Positions 1,048 to 32,340 of a stretch of 53,523 nt of DNA are shown here, piece by piece. Source of the stretch: a virus; the IMG/VR virus record IMGVR_UViG_3300029825_000389, positions 1 to 53,523 of that record; one strand, written 5' to 3'. Under the pieces are notes generated by a model. It was not told the origin of the DNA. It worked only from the letters and a program-made list of their open reading frames with translations, and made no database searches. Position numbers and translations under genes: made by a program. Each line of letters opens with the position of its first letter. Within the stretch, counting starts at the first letter, position 1.

Positions 1048-1200
1048 TTACTTATTATACTTTTTCAATATTAATTCAATTGCTTCATCAAGTAACCTTG
1101 ACTGTGGTATTTTAGTTTCTCTTGAAAGTCCTTTAAACTTTTTCAACAATTCAATATCAATTGAATTTGTATAGCGTTCTCTGTTTTTTAAATCACTCAT
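1048..1200 (-). CDS. 50-aa ribbon-helix-helix (CopG/Arc-like) protein, divergent from tnpB
   Basis: ORF below the track cutoff. Translation: MSDLKNRERYTNSIDIELLKKFKGLSRETKIPQSRLLDEAIELILKKYNK. SD gaggtgata. Clear paralog of 24470..24628. Confidence 0.65.
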   Translation of the reverse strand: MSDLKNRERYTNSIDIELLKKFKGLSRETKIPQSRLLDEAIELILKKYNK

Positions 1201-1217
1201 AATATCACCTCAAAAAT

Positions 1218-1269
1218 AGTATATAATATATTTAAACTTATTGCAACTTACGTAAACTTATGATATAAT
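1218..1269. promoter_or_regulatory. Back-to-back promoters sharing one palindromic -35 (TTGCAA, 1241-1246)
   Basis: Plus strand: TTGCAA, 17 nt, TATAAT (1264-1269), driving tnpB. Minus strand: TTGCAA, 17 nt, TATACT (1218-1223), driving the RHH gene. AACTTA boxes at 1234-40, 1245-50 and 1254-60 are spaced about 10 bp apart. Confidence 0.6.
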
Positions 1270-1289
1270 AGTATTAAGAGGTGATAAAT

Positions 1290-2378
1290 ATGTTAAAAGC
1301 TTACAAATACAGGATATATCCAAACAAAGAACAAAGAATATTTCTAGCTAAAACCTTTGGGTGTACTAGATTTATCTATAATCAAATGTTAGCAGATAGA
1401 ATTAAATCTTATCAGGAGAACAAAGAATTGGATATAAAAAAAATAAAATATCCAACACCAGCACTATATAAACAAAAATTTCCTTGGCTAAAAGAAGTAG
1501 ATAGTTTAGCTTTAGCCAATGCACAAATGAATTTGGATAAATCCTATAAAAATTTCTTTAGGGATAAATCTGTAGGATTTCCTAAATTCAAAAGTAAGAA
1601 AACTAATTATAATAGCTATACAACCAATAATCAAAAAGGAACGGTATACATTGAAAACAGTCATGTAAAAGTACCTAAGTTAAAATCTATGATTAAAATA
1701 AAACAACATAGAGAGTTCACAGGCTTGATAAAATCCTGCACTATATCACAAGTACCAAGTGGCAAGTATTATATATCAATTTTAGTAGATAGTGAAAATT
1801 TCGTTCTACCAGTTATAAATAAAAAAATAGGTGTAGATGTTGGACTTAAAGAATTTGCAATATGTTCTGATGGGTATAGAGAACCTAATCCAAAACATCT
1901 TAGAAAATCAGAAAAAAGGCTCATTAAATTCCAAAGGGATTTATCGAGAAAGCAAAAAGGTAGTAACAATAGACGTAAAGCTAGGCTAAAAGTAGCAAAA
2001 CTACATGAAAAAATATCTAATCAAAGAGCAGATTTCTTACATAAGTTATCAATTAAACTAATCAGAGAAAACCAATCTATAGTTATTGAGGACTTAAGAG
2101 TAAATAATATGCTAAAGAATCATAAGTTAGCAAAAGCAATAAGCGAAGCTTCATGGTCAGAATTTAGAAGGATGTTAGAGTATAAGGCTAATTGGTATGG
2201 CAGGGAAATAATAATTGCACCATCTAATTATGCTAGTTCTCAATTATGTTCAGTTTGTGGGTATAAAAATAAAGAAGTAAAAAATCTAGCACTTAGAGAA
2301 TGGATTTGCCCTCAATGTGGTACACACCACGATAGGGATATAAATGCTAGTAAAAATCTACTGAAATTAGTTATATGA
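1290..2378 (+). CDS. tnpB: TnpB (OrfB) RNA-guided nuclease, IS200/IS605 family
   Basis: Canonical N-terminus [15 protein letters not shown]...FGCTRFIYN. RuvC-like D in GVDVGLK. C-terminal zinc ribbon CSVCG...CPQCG. The start is moved to ATG 1290 because GTG 1281 lies inside the SD. Confidence 0.9.
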
Positions 2379-2485
2379 TTTTGGTAATAAACTGAGGTTG
2401 GTTCGACCTTTAGAGCATGGGTAAACTTGCTACAGTAGTAGTATTGACCATGAAGCCATCCACTTCTATAAGTGGTGGTAGTTCA
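2379..2485 (+). ncRNA. Probable 3' part of the omega/right-end guide RNA scaffold of tnpB element 1
   Basis: A GC-richer structured tail lies immediately after the tnpB stop and ends in the right-end hairpin 2456-2478. Established biology of IS605 TnpB places the guide RNA here. The 5' end (probably inside tnpB) and the guide sequence are not determined. Confidence 0.4.
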
Positions 2486-2517
2486 CACATATAATGTATT
2501 GTATTGCATACAAAAAT

Positions 2518-2553
2518 AAAGCCTAGAATAGTGTAAAGGCTATTCTAGGCTTT
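2518..2553. terminator. Bidirectional terminator between tnpB element 1 and the end of the lysis operon
   Basis: aaagcctagaata pairs with tattctaggcttt, a 13-bp stem. Confidence 0.7.
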
Positions 2554-2581
2554 GAATTATTACTAAAATTATATTTTAATT

Positions 2582-3163
2582 CTATGCAGAAGCCGGTACA
2601 TTCTGTTCAGTATTTTGTACAGTAGCAATCTTTTGCTTCAACTGTGCATTTTCATTCTGTACAGCTGCTAGATCTTGTTGAGCTTTCTGTATTTGTGCGT
2701 CCTTTTCTGCTTCTGTAGTTGCCTTTTGTACAGGAGTTATAGTCTCTTTCTGTGATTTTATAGTGTCTACTATATCCGAAACATCTTTACTTGCATCAAA
2801 TGCAGGTGCTAAAATCTGACTACTCTTAACCTCTGAATTTACCTTTCCACAAATAGTTTCCCTGAAGTGGTTTAGTTCTTCCTGAGATATTCCTGGAATC
2901 TTCTCAATTAGCAGCTTATCAAATTCTTTTCTTTTCTGTTCCCCTGCCTGTGGTATAAATTTAAACTGCTGCTCTACTATATAGTAAATGTCTTGTGCAA
3001 TTTTATAATCCTCGTTGTATTTATCTACACCTAGTTGTGTTACAAGAGCTTCCCTTTTCTTTTTAAGATAAGTCACCCCTACTGTTACACCATAAGAAGC
3101 CAAAGCTCCTAAAACACTCAATACTCCACTTGAAATTATATTTGCTGCTTCATTTCCTAACAT
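2582..3163 (-). CDS. Holin-like membrane protein (LL-H holin family-like) with a coiled-coil tail
   Basis: N-terminal TM segment (ISSGVLSVLGALASYGVTVGV). It is the last gene of the lysis cassette, after the amidase. Confidence 0.4.
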   Translation of the reverse strand: MLGNEAANIISSGVLSVLGALASYGVTVGVTYLKKKREALVTQLGVDKYNEDYKIAQDIYYIVEQQFKFIPQAGEQKRKEFDKLLIEKIPGISQEELNHFRETICGKVNSEVKSSQILAPAFDASKDVSDIVDTIKSQKETITPVQKATTEAEKDAQIQKAQQDLAAVQNENAQLKQKIATVQNTEQNVPASA

Positions 3164-3273
3164 ACTTTTTCCTCCTAAAATTTAATTTGTATTTTTGATA
3201 ATTTAAAAAAGGCTATTTTACTAGTCTTATAAAACAAAATTCTCATCATATCTTTTGATTTATAAAATGAGAA

Positions 3274-4035
3274 TTAAAATAATACCTTAGATCCACCCTG
3301 ACCTTTGTTATTGTTATAAACTACCACCGGAGCTCCACCTTTACGAATAGTAATATAATTTCCTCTGTCCAGGTGAATTCCCATATCTCCATCAGCCCTT
3401 GGTTCTATATAAAATTTAGTACCTGGAATCTGAAATACTCCTTCTGGAATAGTTTCAGGATATGTAGGTACTGGTTGTACTACTGGCTTAGGTGCAGTTG
3501 GTTGGTTTGATACTGTTTGTCCTGTAATCCCTTTTACTATAGCTGTTGCTAGCTTCTCAGGATTATACTTGTTACAATCGCTTTTAGTATCACAGAAAAA
3601 TGGTTCTATAAGAATAGCAGTCATGTTTGTATATTTTAATACATAAAGTCCAGTTCTTAATTGGCTGCCTCTGTTTCTAAATTCTAATGCATTAGACATC
3701 TCATTGCATACTCTATCAGCATAAGTTTTACCTGAAGCACTTATATACTCTACTTCACAGCCATTGGCCTTATCTGTTTCATAGGCGTTAACATGCATAC
3801 AAATATGAAGTTGTGAGCCTATAGAATTAGCTTTATTAACCCTATAAGCAAGGCTCTGTCCTAAACTTAAGGCTGGGCTTGCTGGTGGCGTACAATCATA
3901 GCAGGTATGCCCTAGTTGCTGCAACTTTTTAATTGCAAGTGCTCCATATTCCCTGCAGTCATGTTCCTCATTTCTATAGCCGGAAGCTCCACGATCTTCA
4001 CCAGTACCATGTCCAAAATCATAAGTTATTACCAT
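3274..4035 (-). CDS. Endolysin, N-acetylmuramoyl-L-alanine amidase (Amidase_3-type) with a C-terminal binding domain
   Basis: DFGHG...GASG, HICMHVNA and CEVEY motifs. Lies in the lysis cassette. Confidence 0.8.
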   Translation of the reverse strand: MVITYDFGHGTGEDRGASGYRNEEHDCREYGALAIKKLQQLGHTCYDCTPPASPALSLGQSLAYRVNKANSIGSQLHICMHVNAYETDKANGCEVEYISASGKTYADRVCNEMSNALEFRNRGSQLRTGLYVLKYTNMTAILIEPFFCDTKSDCNKYNPEKLATAIVKGITGQTVSNQPTAPKPVVQPVPTYPETIPEGVFQIPGTKFYIEPRADGDMGIHLDRGNYITIRKGGAPVVVYNNNKGQGGSKVLF

Positions 4036-4057
4036 AACATCATTTCCTTTCTATTTC

Positions 4058-4312
4058 TTATCTTTTTAATAAAACTCCTATAACAAAAATAGAGACTGTG
4101 ACAAATATGCCAAGTCCCCATTGCATAGCTGATATAAAATCATCCATTTTTTTTATTAAATTTCTTATGTCAGTTTTATTTTCTCTGTTATCTTGCTTAA
4201 TTGAGCTTATTTCTTCATCATGTTTTTTTAACCAAATTTCATGCTCATCTACCGTATCATTTAATGTTTTGTGTTTTTCTTCACATAATTCAGCATCATA
4301 ATTTTCACTCAT
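4058..4312 (-). CDS. xhlA: XhlA-family haemolysin/holin-associated protein
   Basis: CEEKHKTLNDTVDEHE...coiled coil followed by a C-terminal TM segment. Lies directly upstream of the amidase, as in PBSX. Confidence 0.6.
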   Translation of the reverse strand: MSENYDAELCEEKHKTLNDTVDEHEIWLKKHDEEISSIKQDNRENKTDIRNLIKKMDDFISAMQWGLGIFVTVSIFVIGVLLKR

Positions 4313-4525
4313 ATACTACCTCCTGTTAATTTTTTGTATTAAAAAAGAGCCTTGGATTCTTCCAAAGTTCTTAATACCTTAGTTCGCAAAAATATTCTAA
4401 CATTCTTCTTATCCACTTGTAACCATTGGTATCACTTAGTTTACACTAATACAGATTAATAGTTACTTATGTGACACAATTTTAAGAATGAAAAAAGAGC
4501 CCTATTTGAGCTCTTTGTAAACAAC

Positions 4526-5194
4526 TTATAACATTTCCAAATATTCATATGGCATTATTGGGAAGGTTATATCTTCATTCTTATACTTCTCATTAAAAAT
4601 AATTTTAATATCCTTATTTAATTGTGGAATATATTCACCTGGAACTATAATACATACTATATCGTTTTGTTTAGGAATATCTATATAATAATTACTTCCT
4701 ATAGTTTTTAGTAGTTGCTCATCAATAAACTGAGGTAATATTCTCCATTCATTTTCAGTAAAATACTCTAAATCTTTGCAAAAAAGTTCTAAATTAAATA
4801 AAAACATTTCATCTTTATCACGATATTCTTTATTTCTATCTAAAAATTTATCTTTGATATGTGGAAAATAGTTTTCTATAGCTTTACATAGTCCTGAATT
4901 TTTATCAATATAAATAACTGGCTGAGCGTGATAGAAATGAGCCCACTCCTTCGTCATACCTATACCAAACTTGCCATACTTTTCTGTATGATACTTAATT
5001 TCATGTAATCTAATATCAGTCATACATAAAACTGGCACTTTGGTCTTTAATGATGCTAACTCATCTGGTAACCCTTTTCTTTCTTCTAAACACTCAGTTA
5101 ATCTAAAACCATCTCTTAAAATTTTTAATACTGTATCATAATCTTTAGTAAAATGATACAGAAAATCTTTTTCAGTATTCAAAATATACTTCAC
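4526..5194 (-). CDS. AbiGi-like abortive-infection family protein (moron between the fibre and lysis genes)
   Basis: The N-terminal pattern ...FLYHFTKDYDTVLKILRDGFRLTEC... matches my memory of the AbiGi family. GTG start with SD gaaagaagg. Non-coding DNA lies on both sides. Confidence 0.45.
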   Translation of the reverse strand: MKYILNTEKDFLYHFTKDYDTVLKILRDGFRLTECLEERKGLPDELASLKTKVPVLCMTDIRLHEIKYHTEKYGKFGIGMTKEWAHFYHAQPVIYIDKNSGLCKAIENYFPHIKDKFLDRNKEYRDKDEMFLFNLELFCKDLEYFTENEWRILPQFIDEQLLKTIGSNYYIDIPKQNDIVCIIVPGEYIPQLNKDIKIIFNEKYKNEDITFPIMPYEYLEML

Positions 5195-5393
5195 CTTCTT
5201 TCATCCATATTTTTTAAACTCTGCCAGTACATCTGGTGGAAGTGTAATGTTTATACGTACCGCCTTCTCTCCCAATATAACCACCCCCTTTAGAAATGAT
5301 TATATATCTTTTAATTTTGTCTGTCATTTTTATACATATTAATACACACTTATATATATTTATAAGTATAAATATATACGCAAAAATATTCTA

Positions 5394-5809: not shown

Positions 5810-5821
5810 AAAATAGACCTC

Positions 5822-6490: not shown

Positions 6491-6502
6491 GCTATTTTCC
6501 TC

Positions 6503-11876: not shown

Positions 11877-13061
11877 TTACATATTGGCCAATGCAGTTCG
11901 GACTTCTTTTATAATATGTTCACCTGCTTTGTCGAAAAATTCTTTTTCACCTATAGTTAAGCCATTAAAATTAATTATTATATTTATATCTTTTGAATCT
12001 TTTGAGTCTTTTTTATCACCGTTTATATAACTATCTGCTATATCTAAAAGTTGTTGGGAACGAGAATTATTTTTCTTTAAAGGAATGGCGGCTTCAGGAT
12101 ATTGACCTTCACCAAAAATTGATGCCCTATCTGCTATACCACCATTGGCATATCCTAAATAATTTCCTCCACCCATAAGGCCAGGGATGTTGTAAGGATT
12201 TCCACCCCAACTTTCTCTTATTTCTCTTATAGCTGCACGTACAGACATAACAGGATCAAATATTCCCTCGTCTGTACCAAAATAACTCCTAAAAGTTGAA
12301 GGTAGTACTTGCATTAATCCTGTTGCATATTCATTTCCAACACCAACACCATTTACAAGAGTAGGATCACCTGTACCTAACGTGCCAGGATTTCCACTTT
12401 CACGACTTGCTATCATTTCAAGTGGAAGTAACCAACTCATAGGAGCGCCTTCGGCTATCATACCAGCTAAAATCCATTCAGATACATTTCCATTTACAAC
12501 TCCGCCGCTAGATAAACTTCCTAAGCCACCATGAATTAAATTATAAACCATACTGATAATGCCTTTATTGTCACCCTTATCGAACATAGGTTGTAAAATG
12601 CCCCCTATTGCACTTCCTAAACCATTTTGAGTAAGGCTTGACGTATCACCTATCCATTTCTTTATAAATGCCGCCATATCTGTGTCTTGCAATCCAAGTA
12701 TAAATCCTTCTGGAATATGATTTGCGAGTGTACGCATTACAGCAGACGGAGAATGTATCCCAAAAGTAGTTTTAAACTGGTCAATAACTTTATTTCCTAA
12801 GTCACTTACTATTTGAGTAATATTGCTTGTGCTGTCTTGTATTCCTTTTCCAAATTCCTGCATAGCCTGGGTTGCTGAAACATTACTTTTTGTAGTTAAG
12901 TCTGAATATATGTTTTGAACCCCGGTACTCATATTTGTAGTTGGATCGGTTACAAGCTTTGTATTGTTTGTTATCCCAGTTCCGAATGTTTTCATCATAT
13001 CCACTGGATAAGTATCAAAATCACTTACATTTATACCCTCTCTTTCGAGATACTTAAACAC
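11877..13061 (-). CDS. Tape-measure-distal segment with a lytic transglycosylase (SLT) domain; probable downstream exon or partner of the tape measure gene
   Basis: GIHSPS motif and SLT-like EYATGLMQV. The N-terminus DFDTYPVDMMKTFGTGI resembles the sequence that normally follows the HFxxPDxGPL tape-measure motif. The annotated GTG start has no SD. Confidence 0.6.
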   Translation of the reverse strand: MFKYLEREGINVSDFDTYPVDMMKTFGTGITNNTKLVTDPTTNMSTGVQNIYSDLTTKSNVSATQAMQEFGKGIQDSTSNITQIVSDLGNKVIDQFKTTFGIHSPSAVMRTLANHIPEGFILGLQDTDMAAFIKKWIGDTSSLTQNGLGSAIGGILQPMFDKGDNKGIISMVYNLIHGGLGSLSSGGVVNGNVSEWILAGMIAEGAPMSWLLPLEMIASRESGNPGTLGTGDPTLVNGVGVGNEYATGLMQVLPSTFRSYFGTDEGIFDPVMSVRAAIREIRESWGGNPYNIPGLMGGGNYLGYANGGIADRASIFGEGQYPEAAIPLKKNNSRSQQLLDIADSYINGDKKDSKDSKDINIIINFNGLTIGEKEFFDKAGEHIIKEVRTALANM

Positions 13062-14762
13062 TTATTTAAAAGTGGGATTAGACTATCTCACACTCTTTTT
13101 ATAAAGAGTCCATGCACTTCCAAACTATGATTTTCACATAGAATGTACGAGATTTCTCTCTAGTCGTTACACCCGATTAAACTTGGCACGGTATTGCCAT
13201 AATATATAAATATTGTATAAAAAAAGAGCATTATATAATGCTCTTTAATATTTCTTCTATATTATTAAATTTTGTATATGGTATACGAATTAATCTGATA
13301 TTATTTTCTTTACAAAATATATCTTTTATATTATCTCTTTTCTGAACAATTTTAAGCTTGTCTAAATTTTTCTGCTTATTTTTATTAAATCTAAAAGGTT
13401 TATAATGTCCTTCACCATCATACTCTATACACATATTAATATCATCTAAATAAAAATCAAAAGGCAACTCTTTTTTAAATTTACAATTTGGGAATTTAAA
13501 TTGTGGAATATATGAAATATTGTTATCATCTAACCATTGGGATATTTTTTTCTCGCCCTTACTTTCTACACACTTAGGGCATCCACAACCCCTTAATAAA
13601 GTAGAAGGCCTTGCTTTCCATGTATGTCCGCATAAATTGTGCTTTATTAAAATTTTGGTATTTGAATTTTTATACTCACTTAATACTTCATATTCATTCC
13701 CATATTTACTAGAGACTTCTTCTTTAAATATGGTTGTGTTCTTCTTAACATTCCCAGCACATTTAGGACACCTAACCCCTTTTCTTAATGTACTAATAGT
13801 TGTTTCCCAAATGTAATTTCCACAATTAAAAGAATTGTGTTGTAATTTTAATTTAGTGTGTGCATCTTTATACTCATTAAGTAAAGTGTATTCATCTCCT
13901 ACAAGTTTATGTATCTCAGATTTAATTTCTTCGGTATTTTTCTTAGAATTACCACCGCATTTGATACATCCATGTCCTCTTAATAAATTTGTGGGAGTAC
14001 TTAAATATTCATATCCACATTTGTTGTGCCTAATCATAATTTTGGTGTGTGTATTTTTATATTCTCCAAGCACTTCATACTCGCCTTTATATAAATCATA
14101 AATTTCTTGCTTAAATTGCTTCGTAGTTTTTTTAATACATCCTGCACATTTGGGACAACGTTTCCCACTTAAAAAATTACTGGGACGTACTTTATAAATA
14201 TGCCCACACTTATTATGTTTAACTTTTATAAGAGTATTATTGGTTACATAAGCTTCTAAAAAAGTATATTCGTTACCAACTAATTGATATACTTCTTGCA
14301 AAAATTGTTTATTGGTTTTTCTTGCATTGGCTGCACATCTAGGACACCTTTGACTTAAATCTATAAAATTATGTGGCTGCATGTTAAATGTATAACCGCA
14401 TTTATTATGCTTAATTTCAATTTTGGTTTTACTGTTTAAATATTGTCCTAATATCGTATATTCATTGCCTACCTCTTTAAAAACCTCTTTAATAAATTGT
14501 TCATGTGTCTTATTTTTGCACATAATTTTTAAACCTCCGATAGTTTTATTTTTTCCGAGTATTTAACTTTAAATTAAAGGGAAGGAGTCTCGGAAAACTC
14601 TTTTCAATAAGGGTAATTAAGCCTTATCTATCCCTAACTATATTATACCATATTTAAATTTAATATATAATATTTATATACGTTAGGTTTTCACCGTTAG
14701 CAGTATTTTTACATACCACACCCACTATTTAGTGGTTCACATGGTTCTCATAACACATTGCT
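13060..14762 (-). ncRNA. Group I intron (IA-like, with P7.1/P7.2) carrying a homing-endonuclease ORF
   Basis: Coordinates are plus-strand; RNA is read on the minus strand. R-like element GUAACGACUAGA (13159-13170). S-like element GAGAUAGUC (13081-13089). P7 is GACUA/UAGUC. P8 hairpin 13092-13109. GAAA-tetraloop hairpin 13149-13160. Second hairpin 13125-13141. P1-like 8-bp helix CAUAACAU/GUGUUAUG closed by U.G (14763-14770 with 14749-14756). Splice sites are provisional. Confidence 0.6.
13231..14523 (-). CDS. Intron-encoded homing-endonuclease-like protein: five zinc-ribbon repeats plus a C-terminal PD-(D/E)xK (Vsr/DUF559-like) nuclease domain
   Basis: Five repeats of about 65 aa (...KHNKCGxxF...RCPKCAG...). 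The C-terminus reads LPFDFYL...IEYDGEGH. It has its own SD (ggagg). Paralog of 18554..19531. Confidence 0.65.
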   Translation of the reverse strand: MCKNKTHEQFIKEVFKEVGNEYTILGQYLNSKTKIEIKHNKCGYTFNMQPHNFIDLSQRCPRCAANARKTNKQFLQEVYQLVGNEYTFLEAYVTNNTLIKVKHNKCGHIYKVRPSNFLSGKRCPKCAGCIKKTTKQFKQEIYDLYKGEYEVLGEYKNTHTKIMIRHNKCGYEYLSTPTNLLRGHGCIKCGGNSKKNTEEIKSEIHKLVGDEYTLLNEYKDAHTKLKLQHNSFNCGNYIWETTISTLRKGVRCPKCAGNVKKNTTIFKEEVSSKYGNEYEVLSEYKNSNTKILIKHNLCGHTWKARPSTLLRGCGCPKCVESKGEKKISQWLDDNNISYIPQFKFPNCKFKKELPFDFYLDDINMCIEYDGEGHYKPFRFNKNKQKNLDKLKIVQKRDNIKDIFCKENNIRLIRIPYTKFNNIEEILKSII

Positions 14763-14765
14763 ATG

Positions 14766-16985: not shown

Positions 16986-17054
16986 ACTTCTCACCTCCTT
17001 AAAAAAGGCAAAAATAAAAAGAGGTTGCCCTCTTATATTAATTTTACTTGATTG

Positions 17055-17871: not shown

Positions 17872-18074
17872 ATATTTTTTCCTCCTAAAATTTAAAAGCA
17901 TCTATTCTTTAATAGATACTAATTATTGTTTTTATAATCCATAAACTTTTAAATGTTCTCTTGCTTTTGAAACTTAAAATTTAGTAATTATTCAAGCAAG
18001 CTAAAGGGTAATAAAAAATACCCACTAAAGGATAATTCGTTCTTTTGTAGAATTATTCCTTAGGAGGTGATATT

Positions 18075-18296
18075 GTGCAAAAACAAGTCACATGTACTTA
18101 TAGACTTCAATGTCCACACTTAAATAAACTTCACGAGATAAATATTACTTATGCTCAAGTTCCTATGTGCGGCACTACTAAAGAAGTCTATAAAAAAGTA
18201 GAATCGTATTGCTCAGAAGATTCAAAATGTAATCTTAAAGATCAATATGGCCGTTGTCCTGTTTATTTAAAGGCTCCTGAACAACCTCATTTTTAG
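18075..18296 (+). CDS. 73-aa Cys-rich protein A1 (unknown family), paralog of 43065..43262
   Basis: SD ggaggtgat followed by GTG. The shared pattern CP..N....INI.Y..V.MCG..K..YKK...YC......CNL....CP.Y.KAP aligns the two copies. Confidence 0.65.
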   Translation: MQKQVTCTYRLQCPHLNKLHEINITYAQVPMCGTTKEVYKKVESYCSEDSKCNLKDQYGRCPVYLKAPEQPHF

Positions 18297-18522
18297 ACAT
18301 CCCTGCTAAATTAGAAAGTTTATAAAATGTAGGCCATGGGTCTACGGCATTTTCACTTGCACTGCAATGGCGGTTACAATCATAGCACGCATTAGGCACG
18401 TTCTCTTTTTTATCCCAATTGGTAAGTATAAATTCTCTTAAGTGCCTAAAAATACATTCAAGTTCATTTTTATTTAACTGCCCTTGAATTTCTTGGGCAG
18501 CTTCTTTTTTATTTTTATTCAT
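18235..18522 (-). CDS. 95-aa Cys-containing protein B1 (unknown family), paralog of 43266..43544; convergent with A1 and overlapping it by 62 nt
   Basis: Shared L.C....L..FI...C..C....C...F..L..L.G pattern with B2. Confidence 0.55.
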   Translation of the reverse strand: MNKNKKEAAQEIQGQLNKNELECIFRHLREFILTNWDKKENVPNACYDCNRHCSASENAVDPWPTFYKLSNLAGMSKNEVVQEPLNKQDNGHIDL

Positions 18523-18553
18523 ATTTTTCCTCCTATATTAAAAAGCCTCCTGG

Positions 18554-19531
18554 TTAAAGGATGCTTAATTGTATTTCTTTGTTTAATTTTTTAAGTTCGT
18601 TATCTAAATATTTCTCTATGTTCTTAACTGTGCAAGGTATTCTTATAAGTGGTATGTTATGTGCTAAACAATAATTTGTTTTTATCGCATCATTATGTTG
18701 CGTTCTTTTAAGAGTTTTTATACCGCCAAAATGTGCTACAGCTTCTTTGTGTTGTTGTCCATCATACTCTATTAAAGCTGTTAGTTTGTTTTTATTAAAT
18801 ATTGCAAAGTCAAAAGGTAATTGTTTCTTATTAACACACCCTTTAATTCTGAACTGTCTTTTAAATTGAATGTTATTATGTTGCAAATATTCAGTTACAA
18901 TACGTTCTCCGTGGCTTTCATCACATTTTGGGCATCTACTATTAAAATATAAAAACCTTTTAGGTGTTACTTCCCATTCTGTACCACATTTATTATGTTT
19001 CATTTTAATCTTTGTAGTATTCTTTATATAACGCCCCATTACTGTATATTCTGTGCCTACTTTTTCAAAAACATCTTTTAAAAAGGTTTCATGAGTTTTT
19101 CTCAATTTTTTACCAATAGCTTGTGGTGCACATTTAGGGCACCTTGCTGATTTCGTAATAAAATCGTTAGGTGTAATATCCCAAATGGTATTACATTTAC
19201 AATGCCTCATAGCAATTTTTTTATGTGCTCCTTTATATTCACCCATGACTTCATATTCGTTGCCTGTAAGGATATATACCTCTTTCTTAAAAGTTTCAAT
19301 GGTTTTCATTTGTCTTTTACGGTCTATTTCAGCCTTGCATATAGGGCATCTTGAAGGATATTTTGATTTTAAAAAATTATTAGGTATTACTTCAAATATA
19401 TTATTACAAATATTATGTTTCATTTTAATTCTTCTTGCAGTGTTTATATATTTACCAATTACCTCATATTCATTACCAACTAAATTGTAAACTTGTTGTA
19501 CAAATTCTTCATGCGTTTTTCTCTTAACCAT
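18554..19531 (-). CDS. Free-standing homing-endonuclease-like protein: three zinc-ribbon repeats plus a PD-(D/E)xK (Vsr/DUF559-like) domain
   Basis: Same repeat type (KHNxCN...RCPxC) and C-terminus (LPFDFAIF...IEYDGQQH) as 13231..14523. Interrupts the tube-chaperone junction. Confidence 0.65.
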   Translation of the reverse strand: MVKRKTHEEFVQQVYNLVGNEYEVIGKYINTARRIKMKHNICNNIFEVIPNNFLKSKYPSRCPICKAEIDRKRQMKTIETFKKEVYILTGNEYEVMGEYKGAHKKIAMRHCKCNTIWDITPNDFITKSARCPKCAPQAIGKKLRKTHETFLKDVFEKVGTEYTVMGRYIKNTTKIKMKHNKCGTEWEVTPKRFLYFNSRCPKCDESHGERIVTEYLQHNNIQFKRQFRIKGCVNKKQLPFDFAIFNKNKLTALIEYDGQQHKEAVAHFGGIKTLKRTQHNDAIKTNYCLAHNIPLIRIPCTVKNIEKYLDNELKKLNKEIQLSIL

Positions 19532-19574
19532 TAATAACCACCCCTTAAATTAATTATACATCATTAGTCATTTA

Positions 19575-19636
19575 CTTTCAAGTACTTGCCTAATTAAATA
19601 AGTTGATTTCATTTACTAATTGTAATATAATATAAT
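19575..19636. promoter_or_regulatory. Divergent consensus promoters for the endonuclease (minus) and the RHH gene (plus)
   Basis: Minus strand: TTGAAA (plus 19575-80), 17 nt, TATAAT. Plus strand: TTGATT (19602-07), 18 nt, TATAAT (19626-31). Confidence 0.5.
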
Positions 19637-19651
19637 AAAGAGGTGATAAAA

Positions 19652-19810
19652 ATGTTAAGTAAAGATAAAGTTCAAATATCTGTTACGCTCCCAAAAGCAG
19701 TAGTTAAATTACTTGATGAACAAGCCAAAAGTCAACTAAGAACTCGCTCAATGGAAGTTGCTAAAATCATAATGGACTATTTTAAAGAGCAAAAAGAAAA
19801 ACAAATATAG
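19652..19810 (+). CDS. 52-aa ribbon-helix-helix protein
   Basis: MLSKDKVQISVTLPKAVVKLLDEQAKSQLRTRSMEVAKIIMDYFKEQKEKQI shows a beta-strand followed by two helices. SD gaggtgata. Confidence 0.6.
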   Translation: MLSKDKVQISVTLPKAVVKLLDEQAKSQLRTRSMEVAKIIMDYFKEQKEKQI

Positions 19811-19829
19811 TTAATCTGTAGTTGTTTTT

Positions 19830-23047: not shown

Positions 23048-23218
23048 TCCGTTACGTAAAACTTATAAAACTCTATAAAAACTTTATAAAAGTTAATGTT
23101 CACTTCCTCATTCAATGTGTCCGATTTTACCTAAGCTACTTTCGTTTGCTATAACACTCCAAAGGCATAAATTCGGATGTAAACTCACCCTACATATTAG
23201 TAGTATCTTTTAAAATGA

Positions 23219-24376
23219 TTAAACTACTAATTTATATCTTGATAAATTGATACTTGCTTGAAAATCTCTATCCATAACATTTCCACATTCACATTTATAT
23301 ACTCTATCTGAAAGTTTTAAATCTTTCTTAATAGCTCCACAACATGAACATAGTTTTGATGATGGAAACCACCTATCTGCTTCTACAAATTCAATTCCAT
23401 ATCTTTCAGATTTATATTTAATCATAGTTTTGAATTTATCTAATCCTTGTTGTGCTATTGCTTTAGATAAATGTCGATTTTTCATCATGCCTTTAACGTT
23501 TAGACATTCCATGACTATCCTTGACGGCTTGTTTCTCACTATCTTAGTAGACTCTTCATGTCTATAATTGGTACGAATGTTTGCAAGTTTTATATGCAAT
23601 TTAACAATTTCTTTTTCAAGTTTTATAATATTGCTTGTTTTTACGTAACTTTCTCCTTTCTTATTTTTAATATATTTTCTTGATACTCTGCGTTGCAATC
23701 TACGCATTTTCTTTTCTAATTTCTTAACTCTATGCGTTTTGTTAATATTTTTAGATACAATACCATTGCTACATATTGCTAAATCTTTTACCCCAACGTC
23801 TATTCCAATACTCTCTGTAGTTAATTCAGGCTTAATATCCTCAATCTCAACCCCAACAGATATATACCAATTCATACCGTCAAAACTAACCCTTGGATTG
23901 ATATATTTGACATCTGTAGGTATTCTATTTTTTTCAGAAAGTTTAACCCAATTAAGTTTTTGCTTATTCTTCTTTTTGCTACTTGCAAAACCTTCAAACT
24001 TAACATGAGTTGCAGTAAATTGAATTTTATCAGTATCTTGATAAAATTTAGGTGGTGAATGTTTTTTACTTTTAAATTTTGGTCTTTTAGCTAAACCTTT
24101 AAAAAATCTTTTATAAGCTTCACAAGCATCTTTTATGGCTTGTTTAGACACGTTGTTACTAATATTGTTTAGCCATTTATATTGTTGTTGTTTCTTTAAT
24201 TGAGTAAGTTCTTTTCTTAAATCACCATCATTAATAAACTTCCCACCATTTTTATAATTTTCCTCTTGTTTTGCAAGTGTCCAGTTATAAATAAATCTAG
24301 CTGTACCTGCATATTGAAATAATTTAGTTTTTTGTTTATTGTTAGGCTCTAATCTAACTTTAATCCCCTGTATCAT
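23219..24376 (-). CDS. tnpB: TnpB (OrfB) RNA-guided nuclease, second and divergent copy
   Basis: KVRLEPNNKQKTKLFQYAGTARFIYNW..., GIDVGVK, and the C-terminal CSCCG...CECG zinc ribbon. Confidence 0.9.
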   Translation of the reverse strand: MIQGIKVRLEPNNKQKTKLFQYAGTARFIYNWTLAKQEENYKNGGKFINDGDLRKELTQLKKQQQYKWLNNISNNVSKQAIKDACEAYKRFFKGLAKRPKFKSKKHSPPKFYQDTDKIQFTATHVKFEGFASSKKKNKQKLNWVKLSEKNRIPTDVKYINPRVSFDGMNWYISVGVEIEDIKPELTTESIGIDVGVKDLAICSNGIVSKNINKTHRVKKLEKKMRRLQRRVSRKYIKNKKGESYVKTSNIIKLEKEIVKLHIKLANIRTNYRHEESTKIVRNKPSRIVMECLNVKGMMKNRHLSKAIAQQGLDKFKTMIKYKSERYGIEFVEADRWFPSSKLCSCCGAIKKDLKLSDRVYKCECGNVMDRDFQASINLSRYKLVV

Positions 24377-24400
24377 ATTTACACCTCCCTTTCTAAATTT

Positions 24401-24452
24401 ATTATATCACAATGTCCAAGGACTTGCAAGGACTATTCTAATATAATATACT
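24401..24452. promoter_or_regulatory. Back-to-back promoters sharing a palindromic -35 TTGCAA (24424-24429)
   Basis: Minus strand: TTGCAA, 17 nt, TATAAT (plus 24401-06), driving tnpB. Plus strand: TTGCAA, 17 nt, TATACT (24447-52), driving the RHH gene. Direct repeats AAGGACT at 24418-24 and 24428-34. Confidence 0.6.
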
Positions 24453-24469
24453 ATTTTTGAGGTGATAAC

Positions 24470-24628
24470 ATGGCTAACAAAGATTTAAAAAATAGAACTC
24501 CTTTTTCAAATGCAGTTAATACCGAATTACTCAATAAACTAAAAGTTTATTCTAAAGAAACTGGAATACCAATTTCAAAACTATTAGATAAAGCAATAGA
24601 GTTATTTCTGAAGTCTACTAGAAAATAG
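24470..24628 (+). CDS. 52-aa ribbon-helix-helix protein, paralog of 1048..1200
   Basis: MANKDLKNRTPFSNAVNTELLNKLKVYSKETGIPISKLLDKAIELFLKSTRK. The upstream string atatactatttttgaggtgata is shared with element 1. Confidence 0.65.
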   Translation: MANKDLKNRTPFSNAVNTELLNKLKVYSKETGIPISKLLDKAIELFLKSTRK

Positions 24629-24697
24629 TAGGCTTTTATAATTTCTTATAAGTTTTCTTTAACTGTTACCAGCCTTCCTAAATTAATTAGTCCACTT

Positions 24698-27157: not shown

Positions 27158-27159
27158 TA

Positions 27160-29353: not shown

Positions 29354-29370
29354 TATATCACCCCGTTTCC

Positions 29371-31158: not shown

Positions 31159-31171
31159 TCTATCACCTTAG

Positions 31172-32107
31172 TTATTTAGATAATATTTTCCACTTTAATG
31201 GTCTCCCGTTTAACTTTCCACAAGGTTTGTTATTCTTGATATTATTCGAAAGATTACCAAGTGACTTAATACCATAATACAAACAACCTTCTTTCATTGT
31301 ATTAAAAACTTTGCCAGTTGTAATGCAAACAACCTGTTTTGCACGAGGATTATTTTTGCCTTTTGCTATGCCTTTTTCCTTCCTAGTTTTACTTATTTTA
31401 ATTTTAATATCCTCAGAAAGATGTTTTCCTTTAAATGGAGCTACAATTTCACCATTTTTATACTTGTCTTTCATAGTATTGCTTTGTTTTTGTTTTGAAA
31501 TTTCACTTTGATGTTTGCCATAATTATGGTGGCTTCTACCGCAAATGTGTATGCCATACATAGGATTATTTTTGCCTTTTGCTACTTTTTTTAATATTCT
31601 AGTTTGACTAATTTTTCTTTTAATTTCTTCATCTAACATTCGGCCAGTTAAAGCTATACTCATCTTTTTACGAGTTTCAAACGAAAATTTTCTATTCTTT
31701 AAAGCTTTACTTATTTTTATTCTAGTTTCTATTTTTACTTTAGTTCCTAATCTAGCATTTCTAATTTTATTTCTTATAATATCCATTTCTTCGTTTGTTT
31801 TTCCGATAAAGGTATTACCACTATTACCACCGTCAGCAACATTATAATAGTCTTCGCTTTTAATAGCATTATAGTTTTTAATCCAATCTATCTCCAATCT
31901 ATTCAATTCATCAAACGAGTAAGCTATATCAACTATATTCCTATTGAAGTTTTGTCTGCCGTATTTTTTAATTGCTTTTAATAGCACTACTCCACTACCT
32001 AAATAGCTTTTCCATTTACCACTAAATATTTTCTGCCCTATATATCTTTTCCCATTAATCATATTAGTCGTAATATAGATGAAGCCATATGGATTAATTA
32101 TTTGCAT
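31172..32107 (-). CDS. GIY-YIG homing endonuclease with repeated NUMOD3-like DNA-binding motifs
   Basis: GFIYITTN...YIGQ...YLGSG motif. Repeated ...ETRxKIS.../GKNNP(M/R) modules. Start reset to ATG 32107 behind SD aggtggtga. Confidence 0.8.
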   Translation of the reverse strand: MQIINPYGFIYITTNMINGKRYIGQKIFSGKWKSYLGSGVVLLKAIKKYGRQNFNRNIVDIAYSFDELNRLEIDWIKNYNAIKSEDYYNVADGGNSGNTFIGKTNEEMDIIRNKIRNARLGTKVKIETRIKISKALKNRKFSFETRKKMSIALTGRMLDEEIKRKISQTRILKKVAKGKNNPMYGIHICGRSHHNYGKHQSEISKQKQSNTMKDKYKNGEIVAPFKGKHLSEDIKIKISKTRKEKGIAKGKNNPRAKQVVCITTGKVFNTMKEGCLYYGIKSLGNLSNNIKNNKPCGKLNGRPLKWKILSK

Positions 32108-32127
32108 TATAATCACCACCTAATAAT

Positions 32128-32178
32128 ATTATATCACAGTGATATCACTTTGTAAACATTGTGATATTGTGATACAAT
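32128..32178. promoter_or_regulatory. Back-to-back promoters with overlapping -35 hexamers and GTGATAT operator-like boxes
   Basis: Minus strand: TTTACA (plus 32151-56), 17 nt, TATAAT (plus 32128-33), driving the GIY-YIG gene. Plus strand: TTGTAA (32150-55), 17 nt, TACAAT (32173-78), driving the RHH gene. Both spacers contain GTGATAT(C) copies. Confidence 0.6.
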
Positions 32179-32196
32179 ATTATTCGAGGTGATAAC

Positions 32197-32340
32197 ATGG
32201 GTATTTCTAAGGATAATACCAGAACACTAATAACTATGTCTAAAGAGTTAAAGCAAAAATTAGAAGTAAAGGCTAAAGAAGAAAATAGAAGTTTTAATAA
32301 TTTTATAATTACTATATTAAAAAAATATTTAGAGGGATAA
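32197..32340 (+). CDS. 47-aa ribbon-helix-helix protein
   Basis: MGISKDNTRTLITMSKELKQKLEVKAKEENRSFNNFIITILKKYLEG; SD gaggtgata. Confidence 0.55.
   Translation: MGISKDNTRTLITMSKELKQKLEVKAKEENRSFNNFIITILKKYLEG

What the first reader, a model, noticed from the sequence alone, without database searches (positions are those of the whole stretch)
1048..32340. Recurrent cassette: every free-standing selfish nuclease gene has its own divergent RHH gene (four of four)
The four pairs are:
- tnpB-1 with RHH 1048..1200
- tnpB-2 with RHH 24470..24628
- zinc-ribbon/PD-(D/E)xK endonuclease 18554..19531 with RHH 19652..19810
- GIY-YIG 31172..32107 with RHH 32197..32340

Each nuclease gene carries a near-consensus TTGxxx-17-TATAAT promoter of its own, although it sits inside phage operons. 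Each RHH gene also has a near-consensus promoter firing the opposite way. In three pairs the -35 hexamers coincide or overlap by 5 nt.

The only nuclease ORF without an RHH partner is the intron-encoded one (13231..14523).

Three unrelated nuclease folds share the same regulatory partner type. This suggests a general control module for selfish nucleases carried on a phage-plasmid, analogous to C-proteins of restriction-modification systems. Such a module could keep the nuclease off in the carrier state or time it to infection.
Basis: inference. Interest (0 to 1): 0.8.

Follow-up and report, generated by a model that had tools for sequence, protein, structure and literature searches.

The report
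Arc-like repressor modules beside selfish nucleases
Four selfish nuclease genes in this Clostridium phage each sit back-to-back with a tiny ribbon-helix-helix repressor gene and a shared two-way promoter. The pattern is real, but it is a new example of the recently described "Arc" brake of IS605/TnpB transposons, not a new kind of system.

Summary
Four small ORFs of 47-52 aa are genuine ribbon-helix-helix (RHH) genes under purifying selection. Each is divergent from a selfish nuclease gene: two TnpB, one CapR/DUF2726 homing endonuclease and one GIY-YIG. Each pair shares a compact intergenic region of 77-120 bp with two near-consensus sigma-70-type promoters and repeated operator-like sites.

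Both TnpB-linked RHH genes lie inside their IS boundaries. The two homing-endonuclease pairs are absent from the closest related phages I could fetch.

In public viral and genomic data, relatives of these RHHs sit divergently next to TnpB, HNH, GIY-YIG or LAGLIDADG nucleases far more often than chance (22/34 loci against 7/222 other ORFs). The roughly 260-bp unit of promoter, operator and RHH gene is shared at 73-80% nucleotide identity between cassettes carrying unrelated nucleases.

The reverse does not hold. Nearly all homologues of the two homing endonucleases lack these RHH families, and they also lack a strong promoter of their own.

The interpretation, a repressor that restrains the nuclease, matches published work. 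Zedaveinyte et al. (2023) noted the association of Arc-like RHH genes with TnpB and homing endonucleases. Moon et al. (bioRxiv 2026) showed that Arc represses the tnpB promoter. Verdict: real, well supported, a new member of a known kind, of moderate interest.

The parts
980..2487 (+). IS605-family non-autonomous element 1, in order: left end (LE), arc-like RHH1, bidirectional promoter, tnpB-1, omega-RNA region and right end (RE).
   Evidence: blastn to L026 covers 972-2487 at 78% identity. Three independent insertions (window, L026, L025) share the junction TTTAAC(C)|CTGYTCTTGTG and the right end ...GGTAGTTCACA, with unrelated flanks. The phage c-st copy shares only 1278-2486 and has a TnpA remnant upstream instead of an RHH.
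980..1047 (+). Left end of element 1, with GC-rich hairpins (ctcccatcctctataggtgggag and ttgccgttaggcaa).
   Evidence: Read from the sequence. Conserved in L025 and L026. No T-run follows the hairpins, so they are not intrinsic terminators.
1048..1200 (-). RHH1, an Arc-like repressor gene of 50 aa.
   Evidence: Pfam RHH_3 at 1.1e-17 and PHROG Arc-like repressor at 5.9e-16. Shine-Dalgarno GAGGTGATA. dN/dS 0.10 against L026.
1201..1289 (.). Bidirectional promoter and operator of pair 1. The shared -35 TTGCAA is at 1241-1246. The tnpB -10 TGaTATAAT is at 1261-1269. The RHH1 -10 TATACT is at 1223-1218. Three AACTTA repeats in 10-bp phase lie at 1235, 1245 and 1255.
1290..2378 (+). tnpB-1 (362 aa), with D/E/D-type RuvC motifs and a zinc finger present.
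   Evidence: Pfam OrfB_IS605, Cas12f1-like_TNB and HTH_OrfB. Motifs GVDVG, IVIEDL and RDINAS.
2379..2487 (+). 3' region of element 1, taken to be the omega-RNA scaffold and right end.
   Evidence: Conserved with L026 and c-st up to 2486/2487, then divergent. The omega-RNA function is inferred from TnpB biology.
13231..14523 (-). Second CapR/DUF4379/DUF2726 endonuclease. It sits between the two halves of the tape-measure gene and is the only selfish nuclease here without an RHH.
   Evidence: No RHH nearby. No Rfam intron hit.
17902..19829 (-). Inserted cassette between the tail-tube gene and the tail-chaperone gene. It contains RHH3, the endonuclease and a 95-aa ORF.
   Evidence: In the closest relative, L150 (tube protein 73% identical), the tube gene is followed directly by the chaperone gene.
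18235..18522 (-). 95-aa ORF of unknown function, co-oriented downstream of the endonuclease inside the insertion.
   Evidence: Only phrog_1664 (unknown function) matches, and Pfam gives no hit.
18554..19531 (-).
   Evidence: Pfam CapR at 1e-10 and DUF2726 at 1e-5; phrog_559 at 3.5e-84. The PD-(D/E)xK assignment of DUF2726 was not tested here.
19532..19651 (.). Intergenic control region of pair 3. The endonuclease promoter is TTGAAA (19581-19576), 17 nt, TATAAT (19558-19553). The RHH3 promoter is TTGATT (19603-19608), 17 nt, TATAAT (19626-19631). TCATTTACT repeats lie at 19568 and 19609.
   Evidence: The region is 86% conserved in L146 and L149, although the coding sequence has diverged.
19652..19810 (+). 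RHH3 (52 aa), a rare RHH lineage.
   Evidence: Pfam RHH_5 at 1.5e-5. AlphaFold2 pLDDT 86, with Foldseek top hits Arc and CopG. Only 3 clusters were found in the search of 5.8 billion proteins; the 75%-identical relative is again divergent from a CapR endonuclease. dN/dS 0.37.
23050..24667 (-). TnpB element 2, in order: left end, RHH2, bidirectional promoter, tnpB-2, omega-RNA region and right end.
   Evidence: blastn to L030 covers 23067-24667 at 73% identity, with different flanking genes in L030 and L023.
23104..23165 (-). RAGATH-18 RNA motif just 3' of tnpB-2, probably part of the guide (omega) RNA.
   Evidence: Rfam RF03064, 69 bits against a gathering score of 44.9, E 8.7e-12.
23219..24376 (-). 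tnpB-2 (385 aa).
   Evidence: Pfam. Motifs GIDVG, VMECL and DRDFQAS.
24377..24469 (.). Bidirectional promoter and operator of pair 2. The shared -35 TTGCAA is at 24424-24429. The tnpB -10 is at 24406-24401. The RHH2 -10 TATACT is at 24447-24452. The operator reads GTCCaaGGAC-TTGCAA-GGAC (24414-24433).
24470..24628 (+). RHH2, an Arc-like repressor gene of 52 aa, with a terminator-like hairpin at 24610-24636.
   Evidence: Pfam RHH_3 at 2.1e-19. dN/dS 0.05-0.20. Hairpin.
31172..32107 (-). Free-standing GIY-YIG (SegE-type) homing endonuclease with NUMOD3 motifs, upstream of the large terminase gene.
   Evidence: The closest terminase relatives lack it.
32108..32196 (.). Control region of pair 4. 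The GIY-YIG promoter is TTTACA (32156-32151), 17 nt, TGaTATAAT (32136-32128). The RHH4 promoter is TTGTAA (32150-32155), 17 nt, TGaTACAAT. There are five TATCACA/GTGATAY heptads: 32131-37, 32139-45, 32142-48, 32161-67 and 32169-75.
32197..32340 (+). RHH4 (47 aa), an Arc-like repressor gene.
   Evidence: phrog_582 Arc-like repressor at 3.6e-10. The family profile hits PDB RHH proteins EndoAI, ORF56, Arc, Mnt and CopG. 60% identical to an unannotated RHH divergent from tnpB CST113 of phage c-st. dN/dS 0.11-0.36.

Best explanation
Each RHH gene, together with its intergenic region, forms a compact and portable module of promoter, operator and repressor.

The module supplies a strong promoter of the host sigma-A type to the adjacent selfish nuclease gene, and a divergent promoter to the RHH gene itself. 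The RHH dimer, probably as two or more dimers on phased sub-sites, binds repeats that overlap the shared -35 in the RHH_3 family. In the RHH4 family the repeats overlap the two -10 elements. Binding represses both promoters at once. The outcome is negative autoregulation of the RHH and a low, buffered level of the nuclease.

Shown here:
- the fold;
- coding constraint on the RHH ORFs;
- a conserved divergent architecture;
- RHH genes lying inside the mobile units;
- operator-like repeats whose sequence covaries with the RHH beta-strand;
- enrichment next to nucleases;
- exchange of the module between unrelated nuclease genes.

Shown by others for homologous IS605 Arc proteins: binding to the promoter and repression of tnpB.

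Inferred only: the phage late operons appear to depend on phage-encoded sigma factors. The cassettes would therefore be the only constitutively active promoters in the structural region during the plasmid or prophage carrier state, and the RHH would keep the nucleases low there. A burst of nuclease expression would be possible on entry into a cell that has no repressor.
For: RHH identity.

Real genes: Shine-Dalgarno GAGGTGATA before all four, and dN/dS of 0.05-0.37.

Promoters. Only 24 sites of this quality exist in the 53.5-kb window, and four of them sit directly upstream of the four nuclease genes.

Operators:
- In the RHH_3 family the layout is [X'X'X'X' nn XXXX] TTGCAA [XXXX]. The tetramer covaries between lineages (GGAC, TCAG, TAAG, GTAG), and the beta-strand changes in parallel: SNAVNT, GSAIDN, TNSIDI.
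- In the RHH4 family an inverted repeat over the nuclease -10 covaries: ATATCAC/GTGATAT, ATACCA/TGGTAT, GTAACAC/GTGGTAAC.
- Each operator occurs only in its own cassette in the window.

RHH genes inside the mobile units.

Association outside this genome:
- The divergent upstream neighbour is a nuclease in 22 of 34 non-redundant viral loci, against 7 of 222 other ORFs (odds ratio 56, p = 2e-17). Two more of these neighbours turned out to be nuclease-like (L017; L011).
- In genomes the closest relatives sit beside TnpB, Y1 TnpA and homing endonucleases.

Module exchange:
- Window 24377-24642 is 80% identical to modules beside an HNH gene (L032), a NUMOD3-motif endonuclease related to the window's GIY-YIG (L031) and an unknown gene (L034).
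- Window 32105-32322 is 73-79% identical to modules beside TnpB (L003, L006), a methylase (L004) and an unknown gene (L005).
- Homology ends at the nuclease start codon.

Promoter and repressor travel together: 76% of RHH-linked nuclease genes have a promoter scoring at least 10 of 12, against 15-17% of RHH-less homologues.

Published experiments: Arc ChIP-seq peaks at the bidirectional IS605 promoter, including a C. botulinum element. Arc repressed an RFP reporter driven by the tnpB promoter, and mutations in the beta-strand or the operator relieved the repression (10.64898/2026.09.24.754181).

Phage-encoded sigma factors.
Against: - No binding or expression data exist for these four proteins.
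- I could not test whether they fall in the clade assayed by Moon et al., because those sequences are not held. That paper also reports that some Arc homologues showed no detectable binding.
- The beta-strand/operator correspondence is not one-to-one. L036 has the SNAVNT strand but a GTAG operator.
- The operator for RHH3 is only a pair of 9-bp direct repeats, which occur at near-chance frequency in the window (3 found, 1.3 expected).
- Late-operon read-through would express three of the four nucleases regardless of the RHH, so the benefit is confined to states in which the late operon is silent. That is inference.
- Most homologues of the homing endonucleases manage without any such RHH.
Confidence: 0.8

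Rival explanations
1. Toxin-antitoxin logic. The RHH would be an antitoxin that neutralises the nuclease by direct protein-protein binding, as proposed for archaeal RHH/MazE-TnpB pairs. Loss of the cassette would then kill the cell or phage.
For: RHH domains are common antitoxins. The family profile's best PDB hit is the EndoAI antitoxin. Altae-Tran et al. 2023 (PMC10691335) proposed a toxin-antitoxin role for archaeal RHH-TnpB pairs.
Against: - The proteins are 47-52 aa, a bare RHH domain with no C-terminal toxin-binding extension.
- The genes are divergent, not co-transcribed with the RHH first.
- One RHH family pairs with at least four unrelated nuclease folds, and near-identical modules sit beside different nucleases. 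A specific protein interface could not accommodate that.
- The archaeal case involves TnpBs with rearranged catalytic sites located downstream of the RHH, which is a different architecture.
Confidence: 0.05
2. The RHH is an activator, or a dual activator-repressor like many R-M C-proteins or AmrZ, that is needed to switch the nuclease promoter on.
For: Some RHH proteins activate transcription (AlgZ/AmrZ, cited). AmrZ is among the structural matches. Divergent promoters with several sub-sites can give dual control.
Against: The nuclease promoters are already near consensus with extended -10 elements, so they need no activator. The candidate operators overlap the -35 or -10 hexamers, a position that blocks transcription. 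Homologous Arc proteins repress.
Confidence: 0.07
3. The RHH serves mobility rather than expression. It would be an architectural or targeting cofactor that binds the element to assist transposition or homing, or to shield the element's own DNA from cleavage.
For: The RHH genes lie inside the mobile units next to the left end. Moon et al. list interaction with TnpA, TnpB or the omega-RNA as hypotheses they considered.
Against: The same module serves RNA-guided TnpB elements and protein-guided homing endonucleases, which move by unrelated mechanisms. The conserved repeats lie on the promoter hexamers, not at element ends. The module also occurs beside a methylase gene.
Confidence: 0.05
4. The RHH genes are ordinary resident phage regulators, and the nucleases merely inserted next to them. 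The adjacency would be an insertion-site preference, not a functional unit.
For: A few related loci keep the RHH module without a recognisable nuclease: L034, L036, L037, and L035 beside a small terminase subunit. Intergenic promoter regions are common landing sites for homing endonuclease genes.
Against: RHH1 and RHH2 lie within IS boundaries defined by independent insertions. RHH3 is absent from the closest phage relative together with its endonuclease. RHH4 and the GIY-YIG gene were not detected at the terminase locus of the closest relatives. The nearest DNA relatives of the RHH4 and RHH2 modules lie in other cassettes, not in related phage backbones.
Confidence: 0.03

Closest known systems
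Arc of IS605-family transposons (Moon, Zedaveinyte, Wiegand and Sternberg, bioRxiv 2026, 10.64898/2026.09.24.754181). First noted as the 'Arc-like ORF' of IStrons and TnpB elements in Zedaveinyte et al. 2023 (10.1101/2023.11.20.567912).
   Same: - A small RHH gene of about 50 aa inside the transposon.
- Divergent from tnpB across a bidirectional promoter.
- Binding motifs over the -35 and -10 elements.
- A Clostridium setting, and an 'arc + tnpB only' class of elements.
- Both papers also record homing endonucleases as frequent neighbours of arc.
   Different: - Here the same genome carries four apparently orthogonal copies: two on TnpB elements without tnpA and two on free-standing homing endonucleases. 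One of these is a CapR/DUF2726 type not named in those papers' text.
- No experiment exists for any RHH-homing endonuclease pair.
- Sequence membership in the assayed clade could not be checked.
Controller (C) proteins of restriction-modification systems.
   Same: A small autoregulated DNA-binding protein sets the level and timing of a potentially lethal nuclease carried by a mobile element.
   Different: C-proteins are Xre-type helix-turn-helix proteins. They are usually co-transcribed upstream of the nuclease gene and act first as activators and then as repressors. Here the fold is RHH, the genes are divergent, and the promoters need no activation.
Plasmid RHH repressors CopG (pMV158) and omega (pSM19035).
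   Same: A bare RHH domain binds several phased sub-sites over promoter hexamers and autoregulates. The RHH4 operator consists of heptads that fit the omega consensus WATCACW as I recall it from the literature. CopG is a structural match.
   Different: They control plasmid copy number and partition, not nucleases. No significant sequence similarity to omega was found.
RHH antitoxins of type II toxin-antitoxin systems, including the proposed archaeal RHH/MazE-TnpB pairs (PMC10691335).
   Same: An RHH DNA-binding domain sits next to a nuclease-type gene, and autoregulation is common.
   Different: Antitoxins carry a toxin-binding tail and are co-transcribed with the toxin. These proteins have no tail and are divergent.
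Autorepression by the homing endonuclease I-TevI, and translational control of T4-type free-standing endonuclease genes (from my own knowledge of that literature).
   Same: Expression of a phage homing endonuclease is restrained so that the host phage is not harmed.
   Different: In those cases the endonuclease itself or RNA structure does the restraining. Here a separate repressor gene travels with the endonuclease gene.

Membership tests
Ribbon-helix-helix (Arc/MetJ/CopG) superfamily | A domain of about 45 residues with an N-terminal beta-strand followed by two helices. | tested here: met
   Pfam RHH_3 at 1e-17 and 2e-19 for RHH1 and RHH2. RHH_5, Arc and HicB hits for RHH3 and RHH4. PHROG Arc-like repressor. 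Profile hits to Arc, Mnt, CopG and ORF56 in the PDB. The AlphaFold2 model of RHH3 has an extended N-terminus and helices at 15-27 and 32-50, and its top Foldseek hits are all RHH proteins.
Ribbon-helix-helix (Arc/MetJ/CopG) superfamily | Dimerises and reads DNA with the paired beta-strands on repeated sub-sites. | not testable with these tools
   Only indirect evidence: phased repeats over the promoters that covary with beta-strand residues.
IS605-family Arc (Moon et al. 2026) | The arc gene lies within the transposon ends. | tested here: met
   Element 1 spans 980-2487 and element 2 about 23050-24667. Both are defined by homology with independent insertions that have unrelated flanks.
IS605-family Arc (Moon et al. 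2026) | Divergent from tnpB, with a bidirectional promoter in the intergenic space. | tested here: met
IS605-family Arc (Moon et al. 2026) | Arc binds motifs overlapping the promoter and represses tnpB. | not testable with these tools
   Candidate motifs are present. Binding and repression need an experiment.
IS605-family Arc (Moon et al. 2026) | Sequence falls in the transposon-associated Arc clade (seeds WP_003367503.1 and WP_094548610.1). | not tested
A close relative of RHH4 is WP_003377448.1 of C. botulinum.
IS605-family Arc (Moon et al. 2026) | Association with the Y1 transposase TnpA (autonomous element). | tested here: not met
   There is no tnpA in either element of the window. Relatives with TnpA exist (L251, L252, L260, L262). 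The paper also treats 'arc + tnpB alone' elements as members.
R-M controller (C) proteins | Xre-type helix-turn-helix fold. | tested here: not met
   The fold is RHH.
R-M controller (C) proteins | Located upstream of, and co-oriented with, the nuclease gene it controls. | tested here: not met
   All four pairs are divergent.
Type II toxin-antitoxin RHH antitoxins | A C-terminal toxin-binding extension beyond the RHH domain. | tested here: not met
   The proteins are 47-52 aa and the RHH domain fills each one.
Type II toxin-antitoxin RHH antitoxins | Antitoxin and toxin are co-transcribed in one operon. | tested here: not met
   Orientation is divergent in the window and in nearly all related loci.
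omega repressor family (inc18 plasmids) | Recognises arrays of WATCACW heptads. | tested here: inconclusive
   The RHH4 control region has five heptads that fit TATCACA. No sequence similarity to omega appeared in the PDB search. The consensus itself is recalled from the literature, not retrieved here.

The most novel reading that the evidence does not exclude
The unit that evolves and moves may be the module of about 260 bp, not the nuclease gene. The module comprises the bidirectional promoter, the operator, the RHH gene and its terminator. It would act as a plug-in expression controller that is repeatedly recombined onto unrelated selfish nuclease genes (TnpB, HNH, GIY-YIG, LAGLIDADG, CapR/DUF2726), and occasionally onto other cargo such as methylases.

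Its operator specificity would be readily re-programmed through a few beta-strand residues. That would allow several orthogonal copies to coexist in one phage-plasmid without cross-talk. It would let host-promoter-driven nucleases ride silently through the carrier state and fire on entry into a naive cell.
Probability: 0.4. Interest if true: 0.55.

Novelty: new member of a known kind. Interest (0 to 1): 0.35.

Why it matters
The window supports a recently published idea: small RHH 'Arc' repressors are a common brake on mobile-element nucleases. It extends that idea, by sequence evidence only, to free-standing phage homing endonucleases.

One 53-kb phage-plasmid carries four such modules with four different candidate operators. 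That makes a compact natural test set for several questions:
- repressor-operator orthogonality;
- the recognition code linking RHH beta-strand to DNA;
- whether selfish nucleases are silenced in the carrier state.

The link between having a strong private promoter and having an RHH gives a simple rule for annotating these unannotated micro-genes. It also gives a rule for predicting which homing endonucleases are expressed independently of their host operon.

Tried and rejected
- **Close phage relatives.** I looked in the GenBank phage collection to define cassette edges. Only the tnpB genes matched, to phage c-st, so I used IMG/VR loci instead.
- **Intron around 13231-14523.** Rfam at the gathering threshold, and at E up to 1, found nothing there. 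The 'intron-encoded' label therefore stays unproven.
- **Further RHH genes in the window.** A six-frame HMM/phmmer scan found none of these families.
- **RHH3 relatives in viral contigs.** None were found. The large protein search found only three clusters.
- **Reverse test, nuclease to RHH.** Among 17 homologues of the 18554 endonuclease, 80 GIY-YIG homologues and 79 terminase-site loci, only one truncated RHH appeared. This rejects the claim that the partnership is general for homing endonucleases. RHH families too distant for my two HMMs could have been missed.
- **Operator copies elsewhere in the window.** I searched for these as a sign that the RHHs regulate phage genes. There were none beyond chance.
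- **Sequences of the experimentally tested Arc proteins.** I tried to obtain them for a direct membership test. No supplementary text is held.
- **Profile-profile comparison of the two RHH families.** This gave only a weak link (hhalign probability 21%), so I treat them as two families of one fold.
- **Toxin-antitoxin reading.** Considered and rejected on protein size, gene orientation and the range of partners.

Full report
**1. What is in the sequence**

The window is an AT-rich (about 31% GC) Clostridium-type phage or phage-plasmid. Almost every gene from 2.6 to 44.7 kb runs on the minus strand.

Four small ORFs break that pattern or sit at its edge:
- RHH1, 1048-1200 (minus strand);
- RHH3, 19652-19810 (plus);
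- RHH2, 24470-24628 (plus);
- RHH4, 32197-32340 (plus).

All four are ribbon-helix-helix proteins.
- RHH1 and RHH2 hit Pfam RHH_3 at 1e-17 and 2e-19, and the PHROG 'Arc-like repressor' family.
- RHH4 hits an Arc-like PHROG at 3.6e-10.
- A profile of the RHH3/RHH4 family finds EndoAI antitoxin, ORF56, Arc, Mnt and CopG in the PDB.
- RHH3 is borderline by sequence. Its AlphaFold2 model (pLDDT 86) has an extended N-terminus and two helices, and its best structural matches are Arc, CopG and AmrZ.

Each ORF is preceded by the Shine-Dalgarno sequence GAGGTGATA. dN/dS against the nearest relatives is 0.05-0.37. They are therefore real coding genes. A six-frame search finds no other member of these families in the window.

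**2. The partners and the control regions**

The partner genes are:
- two TnpB genes, 1290-2378 (plus) and 23219-24376 (minus), both with D/E/D-type motifs present;
- a CapR/DUF2726 homing endonuclease, 18554-19531 (minus);
- a SegE-type GIY-YIG endonuclease with NUMOD3 motifs, 31172-32107 (minus).

Every pair is divergent across 77-120 bp.

- In the two TnpB pairs, a palindromic TTGCAA serves as the -35 for both strands.
- In the GIY-YIG pair, the two -35 hexamers overlap by 5 nt.
- In the pair at 18554, they lie 21 bp apart.

Promoter-like matches in general are no more frequent than in shuffled sequence. Sites with at least 10 of 12 matches and a 17-nt spacer number only 24 in the whole window. 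Four of them lie just upstream of the four nuclease genes.

A fifth selfish nuclease, 13231-14523, has no RHH. It lies between the two halves of the tape-measure gene. Rfam detects no intron there.

Other nuclease-fold genes are ordinary recombination genes without RHH partners: ERCC4, and DUF3799 next to RecT.

**3. The RHH genes belong to the mobile units**

For tnpB-1:
- Homology to an IMG/VR locus (L026) runs from 972 to 2487.
- Three independent insertions share the junction TTTAAC(C)|CTGYTCTTGTG and the right end GGTAGTTCACA, with unrelated flanks.
- The element is therefore about 980-2487 and includes RHH1 and a hairpin-rich left end.
- The copy in phage c-st shares only the tnpB part and has a TnpA remnant where RHH1 sits here.

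For tnpB-2:
- Homology to L030 spans 23067-24667, again including the RHH.
- A RAGATH-18 RNA motif lies just 3' of tnpB-2, at 23104-23165.

For the homing endonucleases:
- In the closest relative phage (tube protein 73% identical), the tail-tube gene is followed directly by the chaperone gene. The whole of 17902-19829 is therefore an insertion, containing RHH3, the endonuclease and a 95-aa ORF.
- The gap between the small and large terminase genes is a cargo hot spot. The closest terminase relatives carry other genes there, and neither the GIY-YIG gene nor RHH4 was detected.

**4. Conserved architecture and candidate operators**

I fetched forty viral loci encoding relatives of these RHHs. In nearly all of them the upstream neighbour is divergent and 40-140 bp away.

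Aligning the intergenic regions shows one architecture per RHH family, whatever the partner gene is.

In the RHH_3 family (RHH1 and RHH2):
- The shared TTGCAA is flanked by an inverted and a direct copy of a tetramer.
- The tetramer differs between lineages (GGAC, TCAG, TAAG, GTAG).
- It changes together with the beta-strand: SNAVNT, GSAIDN, TNSIDI.
- One exception exists, L036.

In the RHH4 family:
- An inverted repeat over the nuclease -10 covaries in the same way.
- In the window the sites are five TATCACA/GTGATAY heptads, covering both -10 regions.

For RHH3, the intergenic region is 86% conserved in the only two relatives, more than the coding sequence.

Each candidate operator occurs only in its own cassette. 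This argues for four local circuits without cross-talk.

**5. Association beyond this genome**

Counted from the RHH side:
- The divergent neighbour is a TnpB, HNH/NUMOD4, GIY-YIG/NUMOD3 or LAGLIDADG nuclease in 22 of 34 non-redundant viral loci.
- The comparison figure is 7 of 222 other ORFs of at least 100 aa in the same loci (odds ratio 56, p = 2e-17).
- Two further neighbours proved nuclease-like.
- The loci are not phylogenetically independent, so the p-value is indicative only.

In species-representative genomes, the closest RHH_3 relatives (Clostridia and Bacilli) sit beside TnpB, Y1 TnpA or homing endonucleases. Distant relatives in Oscillospiraceae lie in other contexts.

Counted from the nuclease side, the link is weak:
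- none of 17 homologues of the 18554 endonuclease carries these RHH families;
- 1 of 80 GIY-YIG homologues does;
- none of 79 terminase-site loci does.

The RHH tracks the presence of a private promoter. 76% of RHH-linked nuclease genes have a promoter scoring at least 10 of 12, against 15-17% of RHH-less homologues.

**6. Module exchange**

- Window 24377-24642 comprises the tnpB-2 5' region, both promoters, RHH2 and its terminator. It is 80% identical at the DNA level to modules beside an HNH gene, a NUMOD3-motif endonuclease related to the window's GIY-YIG, and an unknown gene.
- Window 32105-32322 is 73-79% identical to modules beside TnpB genes and a methylase.
- In both cases homology stops at the start codon of the partner gene.
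- Conversely, a close TnpB-2 homologue (L023) carries an RHH of the other family. The nearest GIY-YIG homologue (L060) has a truncated RHH_3-type ORF rather than an RHH4 type.

The promoter-operator-repressor unit is thus exchanged between unrelated nuclease genes.

**7. Mechanism**

The best-supported reading is an Arc-like autoregulated repressor. It binds phased sub-sites over the promoter hexamers and holds down both its own gene and the nuclease gene.

The phage encodes two sigma-factor-like proteins. The late operons probably use a phage-specific sigma factor. The cassette promoters would then be read by the host sigma-A at all times, including the carrier state. That would explain why a brake travels with them.

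Partition genes (an actin-like ATPase at 48485-49474) and recombinases fit a phage-plasmid.

The carrier-state and entry-burst ideas are inference.

The toxin-antitoxin, activator, mobility-cofactor and resident-regulator readings are each contradicted by protein size, gene orientation, promoter strength, operator position or cassette boundaries.

**8. What is already known**

- Zedaveinyte et al. (10.1101/2023.11.20.567912) described an Arc-like RHH ORF in Clostridium IStrons. They reported hundreds of homologues associated with TnpB, homing endonucleases, other mobile elements and toxin-antitoxin systems.
- Moon et al. (10.64898/2026.09.24.754181) showed by ChIP-seq, reporter assays and mutagenesis that IS605 Arc binds the bidirectional promoter and represses tnpB, including for a C. 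botulinum element. They again list homing endonucleases as frequent neighbours of arc.
- Altae-Tran et al. (PMC10691335) proposed a toxin-antitoxin role for a different, archaeal RHH-TnpB arrangement.

What this window adds:
- four apparently orthogonal modules in one replicon;
- a CapR/DUF2726 partner with a very rare RHH lineage (three clusters in 5.8 billion proteins);
- DNA-level evidence for module exchange;
- operator/beta-strand covariation;
- the link between a private promoter and an RHH.

**9. Verdict**

Its core is right, its claim of generality is overstated, and the timing role is untested.
- The novelty class is a new member of a known kind.
- Interest is moderate, at 0.35.

Noticed in passing
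window 11877-16994 (minus strand): The tape-measure gene is split into an N-terminal ORF (14766-16994) and a C-terminal ORF (11877-13061), with a 430-aa CapR/DUF4379 endonuclease gene between them. The flanks 14524-14765 and 13062-13230 look structured, but Rfam finds no group I or group II intron even at E up to 1. This is either an intron type Rfam misses or a genuinely split tape-measure gene.
   Followed up: partly
window 23104-23165 (minus strand): A RAGATH-18 RNA (Rfam RF03064, 69 bits) lies immediately 3' of tnpB-2. This fits the motif being part of the TnpB guide (omega) RNA. It was the only Rfam hit in the window.
   Followed up: partly
window 640-740 and 870-990: The 3' end of ORF 494-667, its terminator hairpin and about 60 bp downstream are duplicated in tandem (diverged copies) just left of the tnpB-1 element. 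The second copy ends at the TTTAAC target of the IS.
   Followed up: no
window 49505-49520 and 49569-49584: Two copies of AACTTATATAAACTTT, 64 bp apart, lie upstream of the actin-like partition ATPase gene (48485-49474) and a small downstream gene (48171-48482). They may be centromere (parC-like) repeats of a plasmid partition system.
   Followed up: no
window 41654-42103 and 33469-33891 (minus strand): Two phage-encoded sigma-factor-like proteins. The first has sigma-70 regions 2 and 4. The second has region 4 only and sits just upstream of the small terminase gene. This suggests that late genes use a phage-specific sigma factor.
   Followed up: no
window 4526-5194 (minus strand): An AbiGi-family protein (abortive-infection 'antitoxin' domain, Pfam 1.8e-16) is encoded between the lysis genes and the tail-fibre genes. 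It may be a defence or counter-defence cargo gene.
   Followed up: no
window 18235-18522 (minus strand): A 95-aa cysteine-containing ORF of unknown function lies inside the endonuclease/RHH3 insertion, co-oriented downstream of the endonuclease. It is absent from the closest relative phage.
   Followed up: partly
L017, L019, L020 at 2453-4027 (large c-st-like phage contigs of 160-197 kb): A 524-aa divergent TnpB-family protein (NCBIfam guided_TnpB at 3.7e-15, weak C2c8 similarity, no Pfam hit). Its start overlaps the divergent RHH gene by 27 nt.
   Followed up: partly
L156-L234, region upstream of the large terminase gene: The gap between the small and large terminase genes ranges from about 0.25 to 2.9 kb across 79 related phages. 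It holds different cargo: a GIY-YIG endonuclease, a methylase-like gene and unknown ORFs. It is an insertion hot spot.
   Followed up: partly
L002 4197-4346 (phage c-st, AP008983.1 about 102734-102883): An unannotated 49-aa RHH gene lies divergent from the tnpB gene CST113 in the reference c-st genome. It is 60% identical to RHH4. Such micro-genes are missed by standard annotation.
   Followed up: yes
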